Source: a virus
Reading direction: 5' to 3' (one strand)
IMG/VR virus record: IMGVR_UViG_3300020404_000006
DNA length: 64,000 nucleotides
Shown here one piece after another: positions 1,911 to 7,903 of this stretch (positions are counted from its first letter, which is position 1; the number at the start of each line of letters is the position of its first letter). Both the position numbers and the translations under genes were made by a program. The notes below the pieces were generated by a model that saw only the letters and a program-made list of their open reading frames with translations, was not told the origin of the DNA and searched no databases.

Positions 1911-1937
1911 AAAAAACCTCTACAATATGTAGAGGTT
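1911..1937 (-). terminator. intrinsic terminator after DUF4278 gene
   Basis: AACCTCTACA-tat-TGTAGAGGTT followed by T-tract. Confidence 0.8.
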
Positions 1938-1968: not shown

Positions 1969-2112
1969 TCAGCTCTTAGATGCGAACTTGCGTTCTACCT
2001 TAATACCACGATACATTAGTTCGTGACGTTGCTTTTGAGCAGCTTCTGCGAGTACCTTTGCGTTGTACTCTGCGGTGTCATACTCGACACCTCTGTATGT
2101 GACCTTAGCCAT
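1969..2112 (-). CDS. DUF4278 family small protein (47 aa)
   Basis: two YRG motifs (YRGVEY, YRGIKV); AGGAGA SD; true start ATG 2112. Confidence 0.85.
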   Translation of the reverse strand: MAKVTYRGVEYDTAEYNAKVLAEAAQKQRHELMYRGIKVERKFASKS

Positions 2113-2151
2113 TTGGTTTCTCCTGTAAGTAATAGGGGTTTGTGAAAACTC

Positions 2152-2333
2152 CGTTCCTTCAGTCGGCATTTGCGTCCCAGCACCCAGGCGTTGCGTCTTG
2201 TATAACAAGAACTAGTTCCGCCTTCTCGTACTCATTCATTGTGTTGTTCTTTACCACCCGATCTGTAAGATCGTATGCTTGGGAACACTCCAGTGAAGTA
2301 TAGAGTAGCAAGAGAGGTATCATGGGATGAACG
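2152..2333 (-). ncRNA. glutamine riboswitch (glnA-type) aptamer 2 with very long P2 loop
   Basis: CGTTCATCCCA ... TGGGACGCAAATGCCGACTGAAGGAACG; P1 CGTTC/GGAACG and P2 TCCCA/TGGGA pair. Confidence 0.75.
2159..2323 (-). CDS. 54-aa peptide encoded inside riboswitch aptamer 2 (MIPLLLLYTSLECSQAY...GCWDANAD)
   Basis: uninterrupted ATG..TGA frame; hydrophobic N-terminus, two Cys. Confidence 0.65.
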   Translation of the reverse strand: MIPLLLLYTSLECSQAYDLTDRVVKNNTMNEYEKAELVLVIQDATPGCWDANAD

Positions 2334-2336
2334 ATC

Positions 2337-2397
2337 CGTTCCGTGTCGGCTTACTTGCGTCCCGCTTGGTCGCCAAAGGCAACTTGGGGGATGAACG
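2337..2397 (-). ncRNA. glutamine riboswitch (glnA-type) aptamer 1
   Basis: CGTTCATCCC-[hairpin loop]-GGGACGCAAGTAAGCCGACACGGAACG; tandem arrangement upstream of DUF4278 is typical. Confidence 0.8.
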
Positions 2398-2407
2398 TGT
2401 GTGTTAA

Positions 2408-2435
2408 TTATAACACATTTCAATTATTTATGCAA
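2408..2435 (-). promoter_or_regulatory. sigma70 promoter for riboswitch/DUF4278 transcript
   Basis: TTGCAT-17 nt-TATAAT, start site just upstream of aptamer 1. Confidence 0.7.
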
Positions 2436-2471: not shown

Positions 2472-4007
2472 TTATGAAGATTTAAGATTGTCACCTAGCA
2501 CTAGAGTGTCTAGACCAGTTTCGTAAAATAGTTCCAAGGCATCCCCAAACCTTCCAGCTATGGGTTTACCACCATTATTTAGAGAGGTGTTGAGCAAGAC
2601 AGGTGATCCTGTCAACTTCTCAAACTCCTGTAGTAGACTGTAATAATCTTCCTGAGATTCATTTACTGTGTTGATTCTACATGTTCCATCTGCATGTGTG
2701 ATTGTAGGATACCTGTCTGGTTCTAATACATCAGTCACATATAACATGTATGGACTAGGACCATTCCAATCAAAATTTTCACTCACTTTCTCTTCTAATA
2801 CTGAGGCACCGAATGGTCTGAATGGTTCTCTGTGTTTTACCTTATTATTAATGTAGTCTTTACCATGAGGGTCAAAGGGGTTCATAAGAATACTTCTGTT
2901 ACCCAATGCTCTGGGACCTACCTCACCATGTCCTTGATACCATCCAACAATCTCACCTTTGGCGAGTCTCTCTGCGGTCTCCTTGATAGTTTTAGTGGAA
3001 GGTCTGTCAACAGGAGCCTGATCATCTTGCATGAAGGGGAATCCTTCTACAGGAAGTCTCATCATGTTATGTTCCCTTCTCAGAAACTCAATAGCACCGA
3101 GACTTAGACCCTGATCATATGCGTGTGGAGGTATGACCAGATTAGGTATAGCATCTTTCAATACCTTATTAATAATAGTATTTTGTGCTACACCACCAGA
3201 GTATCCCACTACATCATCTGGTTTGATGAACTCTTGGAAATGTCTGAGATAAATCTGTTCTGTATATTCATGTGCTGTATGAATATAATCCATGATGTAT
3301 TGTTGATCATGAAGATGTTGATCTATTACATCAAAATCCCATAATATTTCCAGATCATCTATACCTAGACTCTTATCACATACGTCTGGATTGTGTTTAC
3401 CAAACGCTTTCAGAGCCATGATCTTCCCTGCCTGATCTAAGTAGTGTCCACCTAATTGTAAGGCAGCACCCATCCTAGTCATAATAAATCCAAGACTGGG
3501 CGAACCCACTTGACTTGGATATATGCCTTCAGTCTTACCATAGTCTATGAGTTTATCATCTCTCCACACACTACGGTACATCCAATCATCACCAAATCCA
3601 TCAAAGACAAAGTGAAGATTAGGTTTGACCTTCATAGGCCAGAAACTTAGTGTATGTGCATAGTGATGATCTATTCTATGAATAGGGCATCTAAATCCCA
3701 AGTCTCTAAAGAAAGGTATTTCTACTACTTCTGATATCTCTTTGGAATTTATGGCAATGGATTGATGTACGACACCCATCCTTTCATATTCGGTTCCAGC
3801 ACAGTCCATGATGATACAGACACCATCAATAAACCAAGGTTGAATATTCCAATCCTCAAGTATTCTTGTCCATTGATATACTCCGTTCTCAAAACCAACA
3901 TGCTTACATTGGTAATCTCTCTCGAAAGATCTGTATCTTACAGTCTCACCATCATAGTATGTTACGTTTGCGTCATGAGCATCTAATCTCAAACCCAATA
4001 ATTTCAT
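2472..4007 (-). CDS. carbamoyltransferase, NodU/CmcH family
   Basis: HDA start, HHYAH, AGKIMAL, GGVAQN, GPRALGNRSIL, FRPF, LLNTSLN motifs. Confidence 0.92.
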   Translation of the reverse strand: MKLLGLRLDAHDANVTYYDGETVRYRSFERDYQCKHVGFENGVYQWTRILEDWNIQPWFIDGVCIIMDCAGTEYERMGVVHQSIAINSKEISEVVEIPFFRDLGFRCPIHRIDHHYAHTLSFWPMKVKPNLHFVFDGFGDDWMYRSVWRDDKLIDYGKTEGIYPSQVGSPSLGFIMTRMGAALQLGGHYLDQAGKIMALKAFGKHNPDVCDKSLGIDDLEILWDFDVIDQHLHDQQYIMDYIHTAHEYTEQIYLRHFQEFIKPDDVVGYSGGVAQNTIINKVLKDAIPNLVIPPHAYDQGLSLGAIEFLRREHNMMRLPVEGFPFMQDDQAPVDRPSTKTIKETAERLAKGEIVGWYQGHGEVGPRALGNRSILMNPFDPHGKDYINNKVKHREPFRPFGASVLEEKVSENFDWNGPSPYMLYVTDVLEPDRYPTITHADGTCRINTVNESQEDYYSLLQEFEKLTGSPVLLNTSLNNGGKPIAGRFGDALELFYETGLDTLVLGDNLKSS

Positions 4008-6385: not shown

Positions 6386-6469
6386 TGGGAGAGGAGGGAC
6401 TCGAACCCTCACGACATTGCTGTCAACAGATTTTAAGTCTGGTGTGTCTACCGATTCCACCACACTCCC
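6386..6469 (-). tRNA. tRNA-Leu(UAA)
   Basis: cloverleaf with long variable arm; CT-TAA-AA anticodon loop; GTTCGAG T-loop. Confidence 0.93.
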
Positions 6470-6472
6470 GAA

Positions 6473-6546
<74 letters not shown>

Positions 6547-6621
6547 TGGTAGGACTGTCGGGAATTGAACCCGATTGACTCCGTTATAAGCAGAGCGCAT
6601 TAACCAATATGCGACAGTCCC
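6547..6621 (-). tRNA. tRNA-Ile(UAU), encoded CCA
   Basis: CTCTG-CT-TAT-AA-CGGAG anticodon arm; GTTCAAT T-loop; ends ACCA. Confidence 0.88.
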
Positions 6622-7794: not shown

Positions 7795-7823
7795 TGAAAG
7801 AGTGCGATGTTATGTGAGTAAAA

Positions 7824-7867
7824 TAGAGACGTAATTTAACGACCCATAGGTCTCGGTTAGCGGGTCG
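7824..7867 (-). ncRNA. PhotoRC-II RNA motif (psbA 5' UTR pseudoknot)
   Basis: GACCC/GGGTC stem whose loop GAGAC pairs with downstream GTCTC. Confidence 0.7.
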
Positions 7868-7903
7868 AAGGAAGTGTTGAAATCAACACCCCTACATTTA
7901 TAT

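What the first reader, a model, noticed from the sequence alone, without database searches (positions are those of the whole stretch)
2152..2397. Protein-coding ORF nested inside the P2 loop of a tandem glutamine riboswitch
Seen: two glnA-type aptamers 3 nt apart. Aptamer 1 has a 24-nt P2 loop. Aptamer 2 opens CGTTCATCCC-ATG, and its P2 loop is a complete 54-codon ORF. The last codons (TGG GAC GCA AAT GCC GAC TGA = WDANAD stop) are the conserved 3' core of the aptamer, and the ATG sits in the 5' strand of P2. Established: glnA/Downstream-peptide riboswitches bind glutamine, occur in tandem and precede DUF4278 genes. Inference: ribosomes translating the nested peptide must melt aptamer 2, and aptamer 1 overlaps its initiation region. 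That would couple glutamine sensing, uORF translation and DUF4278 expression, i.e. a riboswitch that encodes its own peptide. I am not aware of this being described, but could not search.
Basis: partly seen in the sequence, partly recalled or inferred. Interest (0 to 1): 0.9.

Follow-up and report, generated by a model that had tools for sequence, protein, structure and literature searches.

The report
Gene nested inside a glutamine riboswitch
In this cyanophage, and in hundreds of related ones, a small protein gene sits in a hairpin loop of a glutamine-sensing RNA switch, so the same letters build both the sensor and the ends of the gene, an arrangement I could not find described in the papers I could search.

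Summary
On the minus strand, a compact glutamine aptamer (2397..2337) is followed 3 nt later by a second aptamer (2333..2152). Its 4-nt P2 loop is replaced by 145 nt, and the insert is filled by a 54-codon ORF (2323..2159). Outside the loop, this aptamer is letter-identical to compact phage aptamers that score 32.2 bits on Rfam Glutamine (RF01739, cut-off 35).

The ORF is a real gene (phrog_504):
- It is open in 119/119 viral contigs.
- It has two invariant Cys.
- It shows coding-type substitution, with dN/dS about 0.3 in close pairs.
- AlphaFold2 predicts a confident helical hairpin.
- Free-standing homologs exist that lack both the aptamer halves and the WDANAD-type tail.

The split aptamer is also under selection:
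- P2 pairs 3-5 across the ORF are canonical in 240/246 cells, with 15 helix variants.
- The last codons show no synonymous variation.

A homologous ORF family (phrog_6471) sits in the aptamer-1 loop in other phages. I found none in the cyanobacterial genomes searched.

The most likely mechanism is inferred, not shown: aptamer folding and ORF translation exclude each other, giving a glutamine-dependent toggle between the nested protein and the downstream DUF4278 protein. I found no description in the literature I could search. Two first-stage notes of this scan cover the same stretch.

The parts
2425..2432 (-). T4-type late-promoter-like element (CATAAATA). A weak sigma-70-like TTGCAT/TATAAT pair overlaps the region.
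   Evidence: Read from sequence. The same TA(A/T)ATA element, often preceded by TTGAC, lies at the same distance in related loci. The consensus promoter scan found no sigma-70 site. Function is inferred.
2400..2417 (-). 7-bp hairpin (UGUGUUA-UAAU-UAACACA) immediately 5' of aptamer 1
   Evidence: a hairpin of at least 5 bp lies in the 28 nt upstream of aptamer 1 (0-5 nt away in most loci shown) in 99 of 107 related loci, with 60 distinct arm pairs. The arms change but stay complementary.
2337..2397 (-). Glutamine aptamer 1, compact, with a long P2 hairpin
   Evidence: cmscan gives Glutamine-II 22.3 bits (E 0.003) and Glutamine 20.8 bits, both below gathering score, with all core positions aligned. 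The P2 hairpin appears in the MFE fold.
2334..2336 (-). 3-nt spacer (GAU) between the aptamers. Together with the flanking P1 strands it can form a GAACG-GAU-CGUUC hairpin.
   Evidence: Sequence. That hairpin appears in the MFE fold. The spacer is 2-4 nt in the related loci shown (the search pattern allowed 1-6 nt).
2324..2333 (-). Aptamer 2, 5' half: P1 5' strand CGUUC (2333-2329), then A, then P2 5' strand UCCC (2327-2324). This stretch is also the translation-initiation region of the nested ORF.
   Evidence: Identical to the first 10 nt of the compact aptamers in L016, L067 and L117. Present in 11/11 loci ascertained by protein search.
2159..2323 (-). Nested gene of 54 codons plus UGA, encoding a small acidic 2-Cys helical-hairpin protein (phrog_504; 'T4-like GC 430' in GenBank records)
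   Evidence: Supported: the frame is open in 119/119 contigs, Cys13 and Cys48 are invariant, dN/dS is 0.28-0.39 for close pairs, AF2 mean pLDDT is 81.7, and there are 382 clusters at 50% identity.
2152..2179 (-). Aptamer 2, 3' half: P2 3' strand UGGGA (2179-2175), conserved core, and P1 3' strand GAACG (2156-2152). It overlaps the last six codons and the stop (UGA 2161-2159) of the nested gene.
   Evidence: Its last 27 nt (2178..2152) are identical to the last 27 nt of the compact aptamers. P2 covaries across the insert. Terminal codons are GAC in 78/81 and GCA in 78/81, with no synonymous change.
2113..2151 (-). Leader of the DUF4278 gene, with Shine-Dalgarno AGGAG at 2124-2120. This is the presumed expression platform of aptamer 2.
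   Evidence: Sequence. The spacing to the downstream start is similar in compact and nested forms (29-66 nt).
1969..2112 (-). DUF4278 (IF17-like) gene of 47 codons, the regulated output
   Evidence: PF14105 26.9 bits (cut-off 25.3) and phrog_5049 E 1.8e-24. The gene called downstream of the aptamers carries the YRG motif in every example printed.
1915..1937 (-). Intrinsic-terminator-like hairpin with a U-tract that closes the unit
   Evidence: 10-bp stem, 3-nt loop, T-run.

Best explanation
This is a functional tandem glutamine riboswitch of a T4-like cyanophage in which the second aptamer is split by a translated gene.

Shown:
- The P2 hairpin loop of aptamer 2 holds a real gene for a roughly 54-aa, two-cysteine helical-hairpin protein.
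- The gene's initiation region is the 5' half of the aptamer (P1 and P2 5' strands).
- Its last six codons and stop codon are the 3' half (P2 3' strand, ligand-binding core, and the nucleotides next to the P1 3' strand).
- Both the protein and the long-range aptamer helix are under purifying selection.

Inferred: because of this overlap, the folded aptamer and a translating ribosome cannot coexist on one RNA. The AUG is transcribed about 170 nt before its pairing partner, so ribosomes can load first. When glutamine is low, the aptamer stays open, the nested protein is made, and passing ribosomes keep the aptamer unfolded. When glutamine is high, the ligand locks P1 and P2, buries the AUG region and shuts the nested gene. 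As in the characterised cyanobacterial glutamine riboswitches, which are ON switches, high glutamine would also open translation of the downstream DUF4278 (glutamine-synthetase-inactivating-factor-like) gene.

The unit would therefore be a two-output toggle. Aptamer 1, whose P1 3' strand supplies the only purine-rich, Shine-Dalgarno-like stretch upstream of the nested AUG, adds a second glutamine input.
For: The architecture is real.
- Sequence. Aptamer 1 match.
- Aptamer 2 equals the compact aptamers outside the loop, and those compact aptamers sit at or near the Rfam Glutamine gathering score (32.2-41 bits).

The gene is real.
- 297 phage records carry annotated homologs.
- The frame is open in 119/119 contigs, all ending 7 nt before the end of the aptamer.
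- Two Cys are invariant, and the interior shows a codon-position entropy pattern typical of coding sequence.
- dN/dS is 0.28-0.39 where dS < 0.6.
- It matches phrog_504 at E 7e-15.
- AF2 predicts a helical hairpin at pLDDT 81.7 with a low-confidence tail.
- There are 382 clusters at 50% identity.
- Four free-standing homologs lie in ordinary gene arrays, without aptamer halves and without the tail.

The split aptamer is under selection.
- P2 pairs 3-5 are canonical in 240/246 cells with 15 different helices. 0/5000 partner shuffles and none of 6 register shifts reach this.
- The terminal Asp and Ala codons are GAC in 78/81 and GCA in 78/81. At the interior Asp-majority columns 26 and 28, GAT dominates (33 GAT against 5 GAC at column 26; 26 GAT at column 28), and the interior Ala column 27 uses all four Ala codons.

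The theme recurs.
- A homologous family (hhalign 93.9%, E 1.6e-7) fills the P2 loop of aptamer 1 in 24 loci. There the AUG, and in many loci also the stop codon, lies inside P2.

Direction of the known switch: glutamine binding turns on translation of DUF4278 genes in Synechocystis and Prochlorococcus constructs (Klahn et al. 2018, PMC6212724).
Against: - No experiment here shows glutamine binding by a 182-nt split aptamer, translation of the ORF, or any coupling.
- The RNA between the halves is not unusually structured (fold z-score -1.18), so closure relies on P1 and P2 alone.
- The U and G of the AUG are paired in only about half of the homologs.
- The MFE fold offers a degenerate alternative pairing: aptamer-1 5' strand with aptamer-2 3' strand.
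- Both pattern scans required exact P1 and part of the core, so conservation of those letters in that sample is by construction. Only the 11 protein-ascertained loci are unbiased for the 5' half.
- The direction of regulation of the nested gene is a guess.
Confidence: 0.55

Rival explanations
1. Passenger gene in a permissive loop. The P2 loop tolerates any insertion. A small gene lodged there and is expressed, and the aptamer still works between rounds of translation, but there is no selected regulatory coupling between the two.
For: P2 loops of these aptamers vary freely in length, from 4 to 24 nt and more. The protein family also exists free-standing. The nested cassette diverges far more than its flanks: about 82% DNA identity over the whole region between the window and S-SSM7, but only about 45% protein identity for the ORF. 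That suggests cassette exchange rather than co-adaptation.
Against: In all of about 200 nested cases seen, the AUG lies 9-11 nt (once 16 nt) after the start of P1. There is no room for an independent ribosome-binding site in the loop, and the frame always ends in or at the P2 3' strand or core. This holds for three divergent ORF types and both aptamers. A mere passenger would be expected to carry its own leader and trailer.
Confidence: 0.25
2. Aptamer 1 alone is the working sensor for the nested gene. On this reading the CGUUCAUCC stretch is its expression platform (an anti-P1 strand forming the GAACG-NNN-CGUUC hairpin), and long-range closure of aptamer 2 is secondary.
For: The inter-aptamer hairpin is predicted in the MFE fold. 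The spacer is consistently 2-4 nt. The only SD-like purines upstream of the AUG belong to aptamer 1's P1 3' strand.
Against: P2 covariation across the ORF shows that the two halves of aptamer 2 pair. The same nesting occurs in aptamer 1 at the 5' end of the transcript, where no upstream aptamer exists. Two nested loci lack an upstream aptamer altogether (L178, L205).
Confidence: 0.13
3. Relic. A gene insertion broke aptamer 2, and the flanking halves are decaying remnants without function.
For: Rfam finds no hit for aptamer 2 in the window.
Against: Across at least 11 genera and more than 100 divergent contigs the halves are intact. P2 shows compensatory changes, and synonymous sites in the overlapping codons are frozen. 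The missing Rfam hit is explained by the 145-nt insert.
Confidence: 0.04
4. The insert is a non-coding structured RNA domain, and the open frame is incidental.
For: None beyond its position inside an RNA element.
Against: The frame is open in 119/119 contigs, where about 9% would be expected for 50 random codons (my arithmetic). All length changes keep the frame open. Cys codons are invariant but show TGT/TGC variation. Hydrophobic columns are fixed at codon position 2 only. dN/dS is below 1, the family has an HMM, and AF2 predicts a fold. The fold energy is not unusual.
Confidence: 0.03

Closest known systems
Glutamine riboswitch, glnA RNA motif (Rfam RF01739), and its relative Glutamine-II / Downstream-peptide (RF01704)
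   Same: It has the same P1 (CGUUC/GAACG), the same P2 hairpin position and the same conserved core. It occurs in tandem, and it sits upstream of a DUF4278 (IF17-like) gene, as described by Weinberg 2010 (PMC2864571) and Klahn 2018 (PMC6212724).
   Different: The P2 loop is 145 nt, not a few nt, and it is a translated gene. The aptamer core is read as the C-terminal residues and stop codon of that gene. The element is in phages, where McCown 2017 (PMC5473149) reported only two glutamine aptamers. Covariance-model searches miss the split aptamer entirely.
Leader-peptide ORFs inside riboswitch leaders, such as mgtL in the Salmonella mgtA Mg2+ leader (recalled from memory, not checked here), and translated uORFs in the M. 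tuberculosis B12 'RpfB switch' (bioRxiv 10.1101/2024.07.19.603033, abstract only)
   Same: A short ORF lies within a ligand-sensing leader, so ribosome movement and RNA folding can influence each other.
   Different: Those ORFs are short regulatory peptides in the expression platform. Here the ORF is a conserved, foldable protein with free-standing homologs. It lies inside the aptamer itself, between its two halves, and shares letters with the ligand-binding core.
ORFs in peripheral loops of group I and group II introns (homing endonucleases, maturases; general knowledge)
   Same: A protein gene is housed in a terminal loop of a conserved RNA fold whose distant halves must still pair.
   Different: The host RNA is a metabolite-sensing aptamer of about 40 nt, not a ribozyme. 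Nothing suggests the protein mobilises or matures the RNA. The coding sequence overlaps conserved core nucleotides.
Dual-function RNAs such as SgrS/SgrT and RNAIII/hld (general knowledge)
   Same: One RNA has both a structured regulatory role and a coding role.
   Different: Those are trans-acting sRNAs with separate coding and base-pairing segments. Here a cis-acting aptamer and the gene are physically interleaved.

Membership tests
Glutamine riboswitch (glnA RNA, RF01739) | P1 helix formed by CGUUC and GAACG | tested here: met
   Both strands are present for both aptamers: 2397-2393 with 2341-2337, and 2333-2329 with 2156-2152. They are invariant in relatives, though partly by search design.
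Glutamine riboswitch (glnA RNA, RF01739) | P2 hairpin helix directly 3' of P1, supported by covariation | tested here: met
   In the window it is UCCCA/UGGGA. Across 82 nested homologs, pairs 3-5 are canonical in 240/246 cells with 15 helix variants. 0/5000 shuffles reach this. The loop is 145 nt instead of 4-24.
Glutamine riboswitch (glnA RNA, RF01739) | Conserved core nucleotides between P2 and the P1 3' strand | tested here: met
   The 27 nt 3' of the loop are identical to compact aptamers from L016, L067 and L117. L016 scores 32.2 bits, and sister aptamers score 35.3-41 bits against a gathering score of 35.
Glutamine riboswitch (glnA RNA, RF01739) | Score at or above Rfam's gathering threshold | tested here: not met
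   Aptamer 1 scores 20.8 bits (RF01739) and 22.3 bits (RF01704), against cut-offs of 35 and 33. Aptamer 2 gives no hit at all. The long loops explain the shortfall, so membership rests on the feature-by-feature comparison.
Glutamine riboswitch (glnA RNA, RF01739) | Selective binding of L-glutamine | not testable with these tools
   This needs in-line probing or ITC on the 61-nt and 182-nt RNAs.
Glutamine riboswitch (glnA RNA, RF01739) | Location in the 5' leader of a DUF4278 / nitrogen-metabolism gene | tested here: met
   The downstream gene matches PF14105 above its cut-off. All downstream proteins printed for related loci carry the YRG motif; the script classed 60 of 112 as DUF4278-like, 39 as MNTL-type and 9 as other.
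DUF4278 (PF14105) | Pfam gathering score | tested here: met
   26.9 bits against 25.3, E 6.3e-6.
phrog_504 (nested protein) | Profile match over the full length | tested here: met
   E 7.3e-15, covering residues 5-53 of 54. The family function is unknown.
Regulatory leader peptide / uORF | A short peptide whose sequence matters only through ribosome behaviour, with no independent protein family | tested here: not met
   The product belongs to a family of 382 clusters, is predicted to fold, and has free-standing homologs.

The most novel reading that the evidence does not exclude
Cyanophage glutamine aptamers would be a natural 'gene-in-aptamer' device. The aptamer halves would act at once as ligand sensor, as ribosome-binding region and as C-terminal coding sequence plus stop codon. 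The result would be a reciprocal, glutamine-set switch between an acidic two-Cys protein and a basic IF17-like protein, which might even be partners. The invariant halves would also serve as homology arms that let the nested cassette be swapped between phages and between the two aptamers.
Probability: 0.3. Interest if true: 0.9.

Novelty: new variant of a known kind. Interest (0 to 1): 0.8.

Why it matters
- Riboswitch aptamers are thought of as compact non-coding domains, and searches are built on that assumption. Here an aptamer is conserved although a translated gene separates its halves by 145-190 nt, and the ligand-binding core doubles as coding sequence.
- This explains why covariance-model surveys reported almost no riboswitches in phages (McCown 2017). 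The family occurs in 297 phage records in the searched collection.
- It offers a compact natural system for studying competition between ribosomes and ligand-dependent RNA folding.
- It points to an uncharacterised small-protein family tied to glutamine status during cyanophage infection, and so to marine nitrogen and carbon cycling.
- Split aptamers with large loop inserts may be worth searching for in other riboswitch classes.

Tried and rejected
- The Rfam gathering-threshold scan of the whole window found nothing at the site. Only the permissive scan found aptamer 1. No tool lets me delete the insert and rescan, so I used identity to compact aptamers instead.
- The window's own assembly is not held.
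- The search for related loci with the protein alignment failed because no stretch is conserved enough. The large samples are therefore pattern-ascertained. I used the 11 tblastn-ascertained loci and the HMM hits as less biased controls.
- A column-based covariation count on the MAFFT alignment A2 was abandoned, because P2 5' strands of different length fall in different columns. I counted pairs from the base of the helix instead.
- Foldseek against the PDB gave no significant match for the helical hairpin. Pfam gave none either.
- The sigma-70 reading of the promoter (TTGCAT/TATAAT) was dropped. The TATAAT is only the loop and arm of a covarying hairpin in relatives, and the consensus scan found no site.
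- The pattern scan of 185,579 prokaryote genomes gave 20 hits. Sixteen are chance matches, and 4 are true hits on short contigs of non-cyanobacterial MAGs, probably mis-binned phage.
- The profile search of 401 cyanobacterial genomes gave only one spurious hit.
- Ames & Breaker 2011 could not be read, so I cannot exclude that large P2 insertions are mentioned there.

Full report
**What is in the window.** The feature lies on the minus strand.

- A T4-type late-promoter-like CATAAATA (2432..2425) and a 7-bp hairpin (2417..2400) come first.
- Aptamer 1 follows at 2397..2337. It aligns over its full length to Rfam Glutamine-II (22.3 bits, E 0.003) and Glutamine (20.8 bits). Both scores are below gathering, because its P2 hairpin carries a 24-nt insertion.
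- Three nucleotides later (GAU, 2336..2334), the letters CGUUCAUCCC (2333..2324) are followed directly by AUG.
- A 54-codon frame runs from there to UGA (2323..2159).
- The last 27 nt before and including GGAACG (2178..2152) are the 3' part of a glnA-type aptamer. The frame reads them as W-D-A-N-A-D-stop.
- A 47-codon DUF4278 gene follows at 2112..1969 (PF14105 26.9 bits, cut-off 25.3), with an AGGAG Shine-Dalgarno sequence.
- A terminator-like hairpin closes the unit at 1937..1915.

**Aptamer 2 is a real aptamer with an insert.** Rfam gives no hit for it, as expected with a 145-nt loop. However, its first 10 and last 27 nt are letter-for-letter those of three 41-nt compact aptamers in other viral contigs (L016, L067, L117), which differ from the window only in a 4-nt loop. 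L016 scores 32.2 bits on RF01739. The equivalent compact second aptamers of P-TIM68, L053 and L025 score 35.4, 35.3 and 41 bits against a gathering score of 35. P-TIM68 shows the same locus without any ORF: two compact aptamers and then DUF4278.

**The architecture is widespread.**

- tblastn with the 54-aa product finds 297 phage records, all cyanomyoviruses, where it is annotated as a hypothetical protein ('T4-like GC 430').
- In all 11 loci fetched from different genera, the ORF is preceded by CGUUCAUC(C/U)(C/U) and ends in the aptamer core plus GGAACGG.
- A scan for the split aptamer itself returned 119 hits. Of these, 117 have aptamer 1 directly upstream, and 119/119 have an open frame from an AUG 9-11 nt into the aptamer to a stop 7 nt before its end. 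My arithmetic for fifty random codons staying open gives about 9%.

**The ORF is a protein gene.** The 82 distinct sequences align as one family.

- Two Cys are invariant, and the Cys codons still vary between TGT and TGC.
- Hydrophobic columns are fixed at codon position 2 while positions 1 and 3 vary.
- All length changes keep the frame open.
- Nei-Gojobori dN/dS over the interior is 0.28-0.39 for pairs with dS below 0.6. More distant pairs are saturated.
- The product matches phrog_504 (E 7e-15) and no Pfam family.
- A profile search of 1.84 billion representatives finds 382 clusters.
- AlphaFold2 with the family alignment gives a two-helix hairpin (helices 13-25 and 31-44, mean pLDDT 81.7). 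The last residues have low confidence, which fits a tail dictated by RNA rather than by the fold. Foldseek finds nothing significant.
- Among the 149 short representatives retrieved, 107 carry the core-encoded tail, 4 (by the script's pattern) read the core in another frame, and 38 have other tails.
- Four representatives with other tails were traced to contigs. They lie in ordinary overlapping gene arrays, with no CGUUCA, GGAACG or core motif at the gene; the only CGUUCA and core-like matches in those loci lie about 800 and 1,100 nt upstream in one of them.

So the protein can stand alone, and the tail goes with the nest.

**The split aptamer is under selection as RNA.** I counted pairs from the base of P2.

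- Pairs 3, 4 and 5 across the ORF are canonical in 82/82, 82/82 and 76/82 sequences, with three to four pair types each.
- Fifteen different 5-bp helices occur, for example UCCCA/UGGGA, UCUAU/AUAGA and UCCUC/GAGGA.
- No partner shuffle out of 5000, and none of six register shifts, reaches the observed 240/246 paired cells. Relatedness inflates such tests, but several independent double changes are evident.
- The 3' strand change also changes the peptide (Trp-Asp to Ile-Asp), so the protein tail follows the RNA.
- The overlapping codons show frozen synonymous sites: Asp is GAC in 78/81 and Ala is GCA in 78/81. At the interior Asp-majority columns 26 and 28, GAT is the commonest codon (33 GAT against 5 GAC at column 26), and the interior Ala column 27 uses all four Ala codons.
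- Caveat: both pattern scans demanded exact P1 and part of the core, so invariance of those letters in that sample is by design.

**A second nest.** In 24 of the loci, the first aptamer, not the second, has a 190-230-nt P2 loop filled by a 61-69-codon ORF (phrog_6471, 'GC 936' in Syn19).

- Here P2 often reads UCUUAUG/CAUAAGA, so the start codon sits in one strand of the helix and the stop codon in the other.
- In a sub-group the frame runs on to G-R-K-stop in the aptamer-1 core, which is a different frame from that used in aptamer 2.
- This family is homologous to the window's family over the Cys-to-Cys region (hhalign 93.9%, E 1.6e-7).
- Some phages have both aptamers filled, some one, some none.
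- Because this ORF begins a few nucleotides after the presumed 5' end of the RNA, nothing upstream can regulate it. The aptamer it sits in is the only candidate regulator.

**Host range of the feature.** The split-aptamer pattern scanned over one genome for each of 185,579 prokaryote species gave 20 hits. Sixteen are chance matches. The other 4 are true hits on short contigs of non-cyanobacterial MAGs, probably phage DNA binned by mistake. A profile search of 401 cyanobacterial genomes drawn across the phylum found no credible homolog. The feature was not found in the cells searched.

**How it probably works.**

- Established: glutamine binding to both riboswitch types switches on translation of DUF4278 genes in reporter assays, and IF17 inhibits glutamine synthetase (Klahn 2018).
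- Shown here: the ten nucleotides before the nested AUG are the P1 and P2 5' strands. The A of the AUG is in P2 in 76/82 sequences, and the U and G in about half. The last six codons and the stop are the P2 3' strand and core. The P1 3' strand begins 2 nt after the stop.
- Inferred: a folded aptamer occludes initiation, and an elongating or terminating ribosome prevents folding. The AUG emerges about 170 nt before its partner strand, so translation can start first. Glutamine-stabilised closure would then shut the nested gene and open DUF4278.
- Aptamer 1 supplies the only purine-rich stretch upstream of the AUG. It can also pair with the aptamer-2 5' strand (GAACG-GAU-CGUUC, seen in the MFE fold), which gives a route for cooperation between the two sensors.
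- I give the toggle model about 0.55, a passive passenger gene about 0.25, and the other readings the rest.
- The region between the halves is not unusually structured (z = -1.18), and nothing here measures binding or translation.

**Novelty.**

- Searches of 8.4 million full texts for glutamine riboswitch with cyanophage, small ORF, leader peptide or embedded ORF found no description of a gene inside the aptamer.
- Weinberg 2010 notes tandem glnA RNAs and short downstream ORFs.
- McCown 2017 reports only two glutamine aptamers in cyanophages and concludes that phages rarely use riboswitches.
- The S-CREM1 paper lists glnA hits from Rfam.
- Ames & Breaker 2011 could not be read.
- The closest precedents are leader ORFs in riboswitch leaders and ORFs in group I/II intron loops. 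Neither has a conserved protein gene interleaved with a ligand-binding aptamer core.

I rate it a new variant of a known kind, with high interest. Two first-stage notes of this scan describe the same stretch. Their follow-up was withheld, so this report is independent.

Noticed in passing
L005:253-453 (Syn19), L008:264-464, and 22 further IMG/VR loci (e.g. L013, L016, L026): A second, homologous small 2-Cys ORF family (phrog_6471, 61-69 aa) fills the P2 loop of aptamer 1. Its start codon, and often its stop codon, lies inside the P2 helix. A third type with a signal-peptide-like N-terminus (L068, L090, L093, L122) does the same.
   Followed up: yes
window 2400-2417 (-), and in the 28 nt upstream of aptamer 1 in related loci: A hairpin of at least 5 bp (mostly 6-8 bp) with covarying arms (60 distinct arm pairs, 99 of 107 loci) directly precedes aptamer 1. 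In the window its loop and arm mimic a TATAAT box. It may be a 5'-terminal RNA hairpin of a late transcript.
   Followed up: partly
window 2425-2432 (-), and related loci about 25-30 nt upstream of aptamer 1: A conserved TA(A/T)ATA element, in several phages an exact T4 late-promoter TATAAATA and in others TTGAC-TAAATA. This suggests the riboswitch unit is transcribed from a late-type promoter.
   Followed up: partly
window 2159-2323 (-) versus L001 (S-SSM7): The flanks (aptamers, DUF4278) look nearly identical by eye between the window and S-SSM7 (81.9% over the whole 459-nt match), but the nested ORF is only about 45% identical in protein. The cassette looks exchanged by recombination between the invariant aptamer halves.
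   Followed up: partly
L133 (Lake Mendota MAG contig), L137, L141, L152: Contigs binned into Acetobacteraceae, Verrucomicrobiales, an unclassified 'uncultured bacterium' and Euryarchaeota MAGs carry the cyanophage split aptamer with its ORF. They are probably mis-binned phage DNA. One is from fresh water.
   Followed up: partly
P0107, P0122, P0103, P0109: Some family members read through the aptamer core in another frame (tails ending ..TEGTG) instead of stopping at the UGA/UAA. They may be real variants or frameshift or assembly errors.
   Followed up: no
window 6386-6621 (-) and 7802-7879 (-): Three tRNA genes in a row, and a PhotoRC-II RNA (42.5 bits, above gathering). These are typical cyanomyovirus features.
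   Followed up: no
window 2472-4007 (-): A 511-aa ORF lies immediately upstream of the riboswitch unit. S-SSM7 annotates a hypothetical protein (SSSM7_288) of the same length (1,536 nt including the stop) at this position. I did not characterise it.
   Followed up: no
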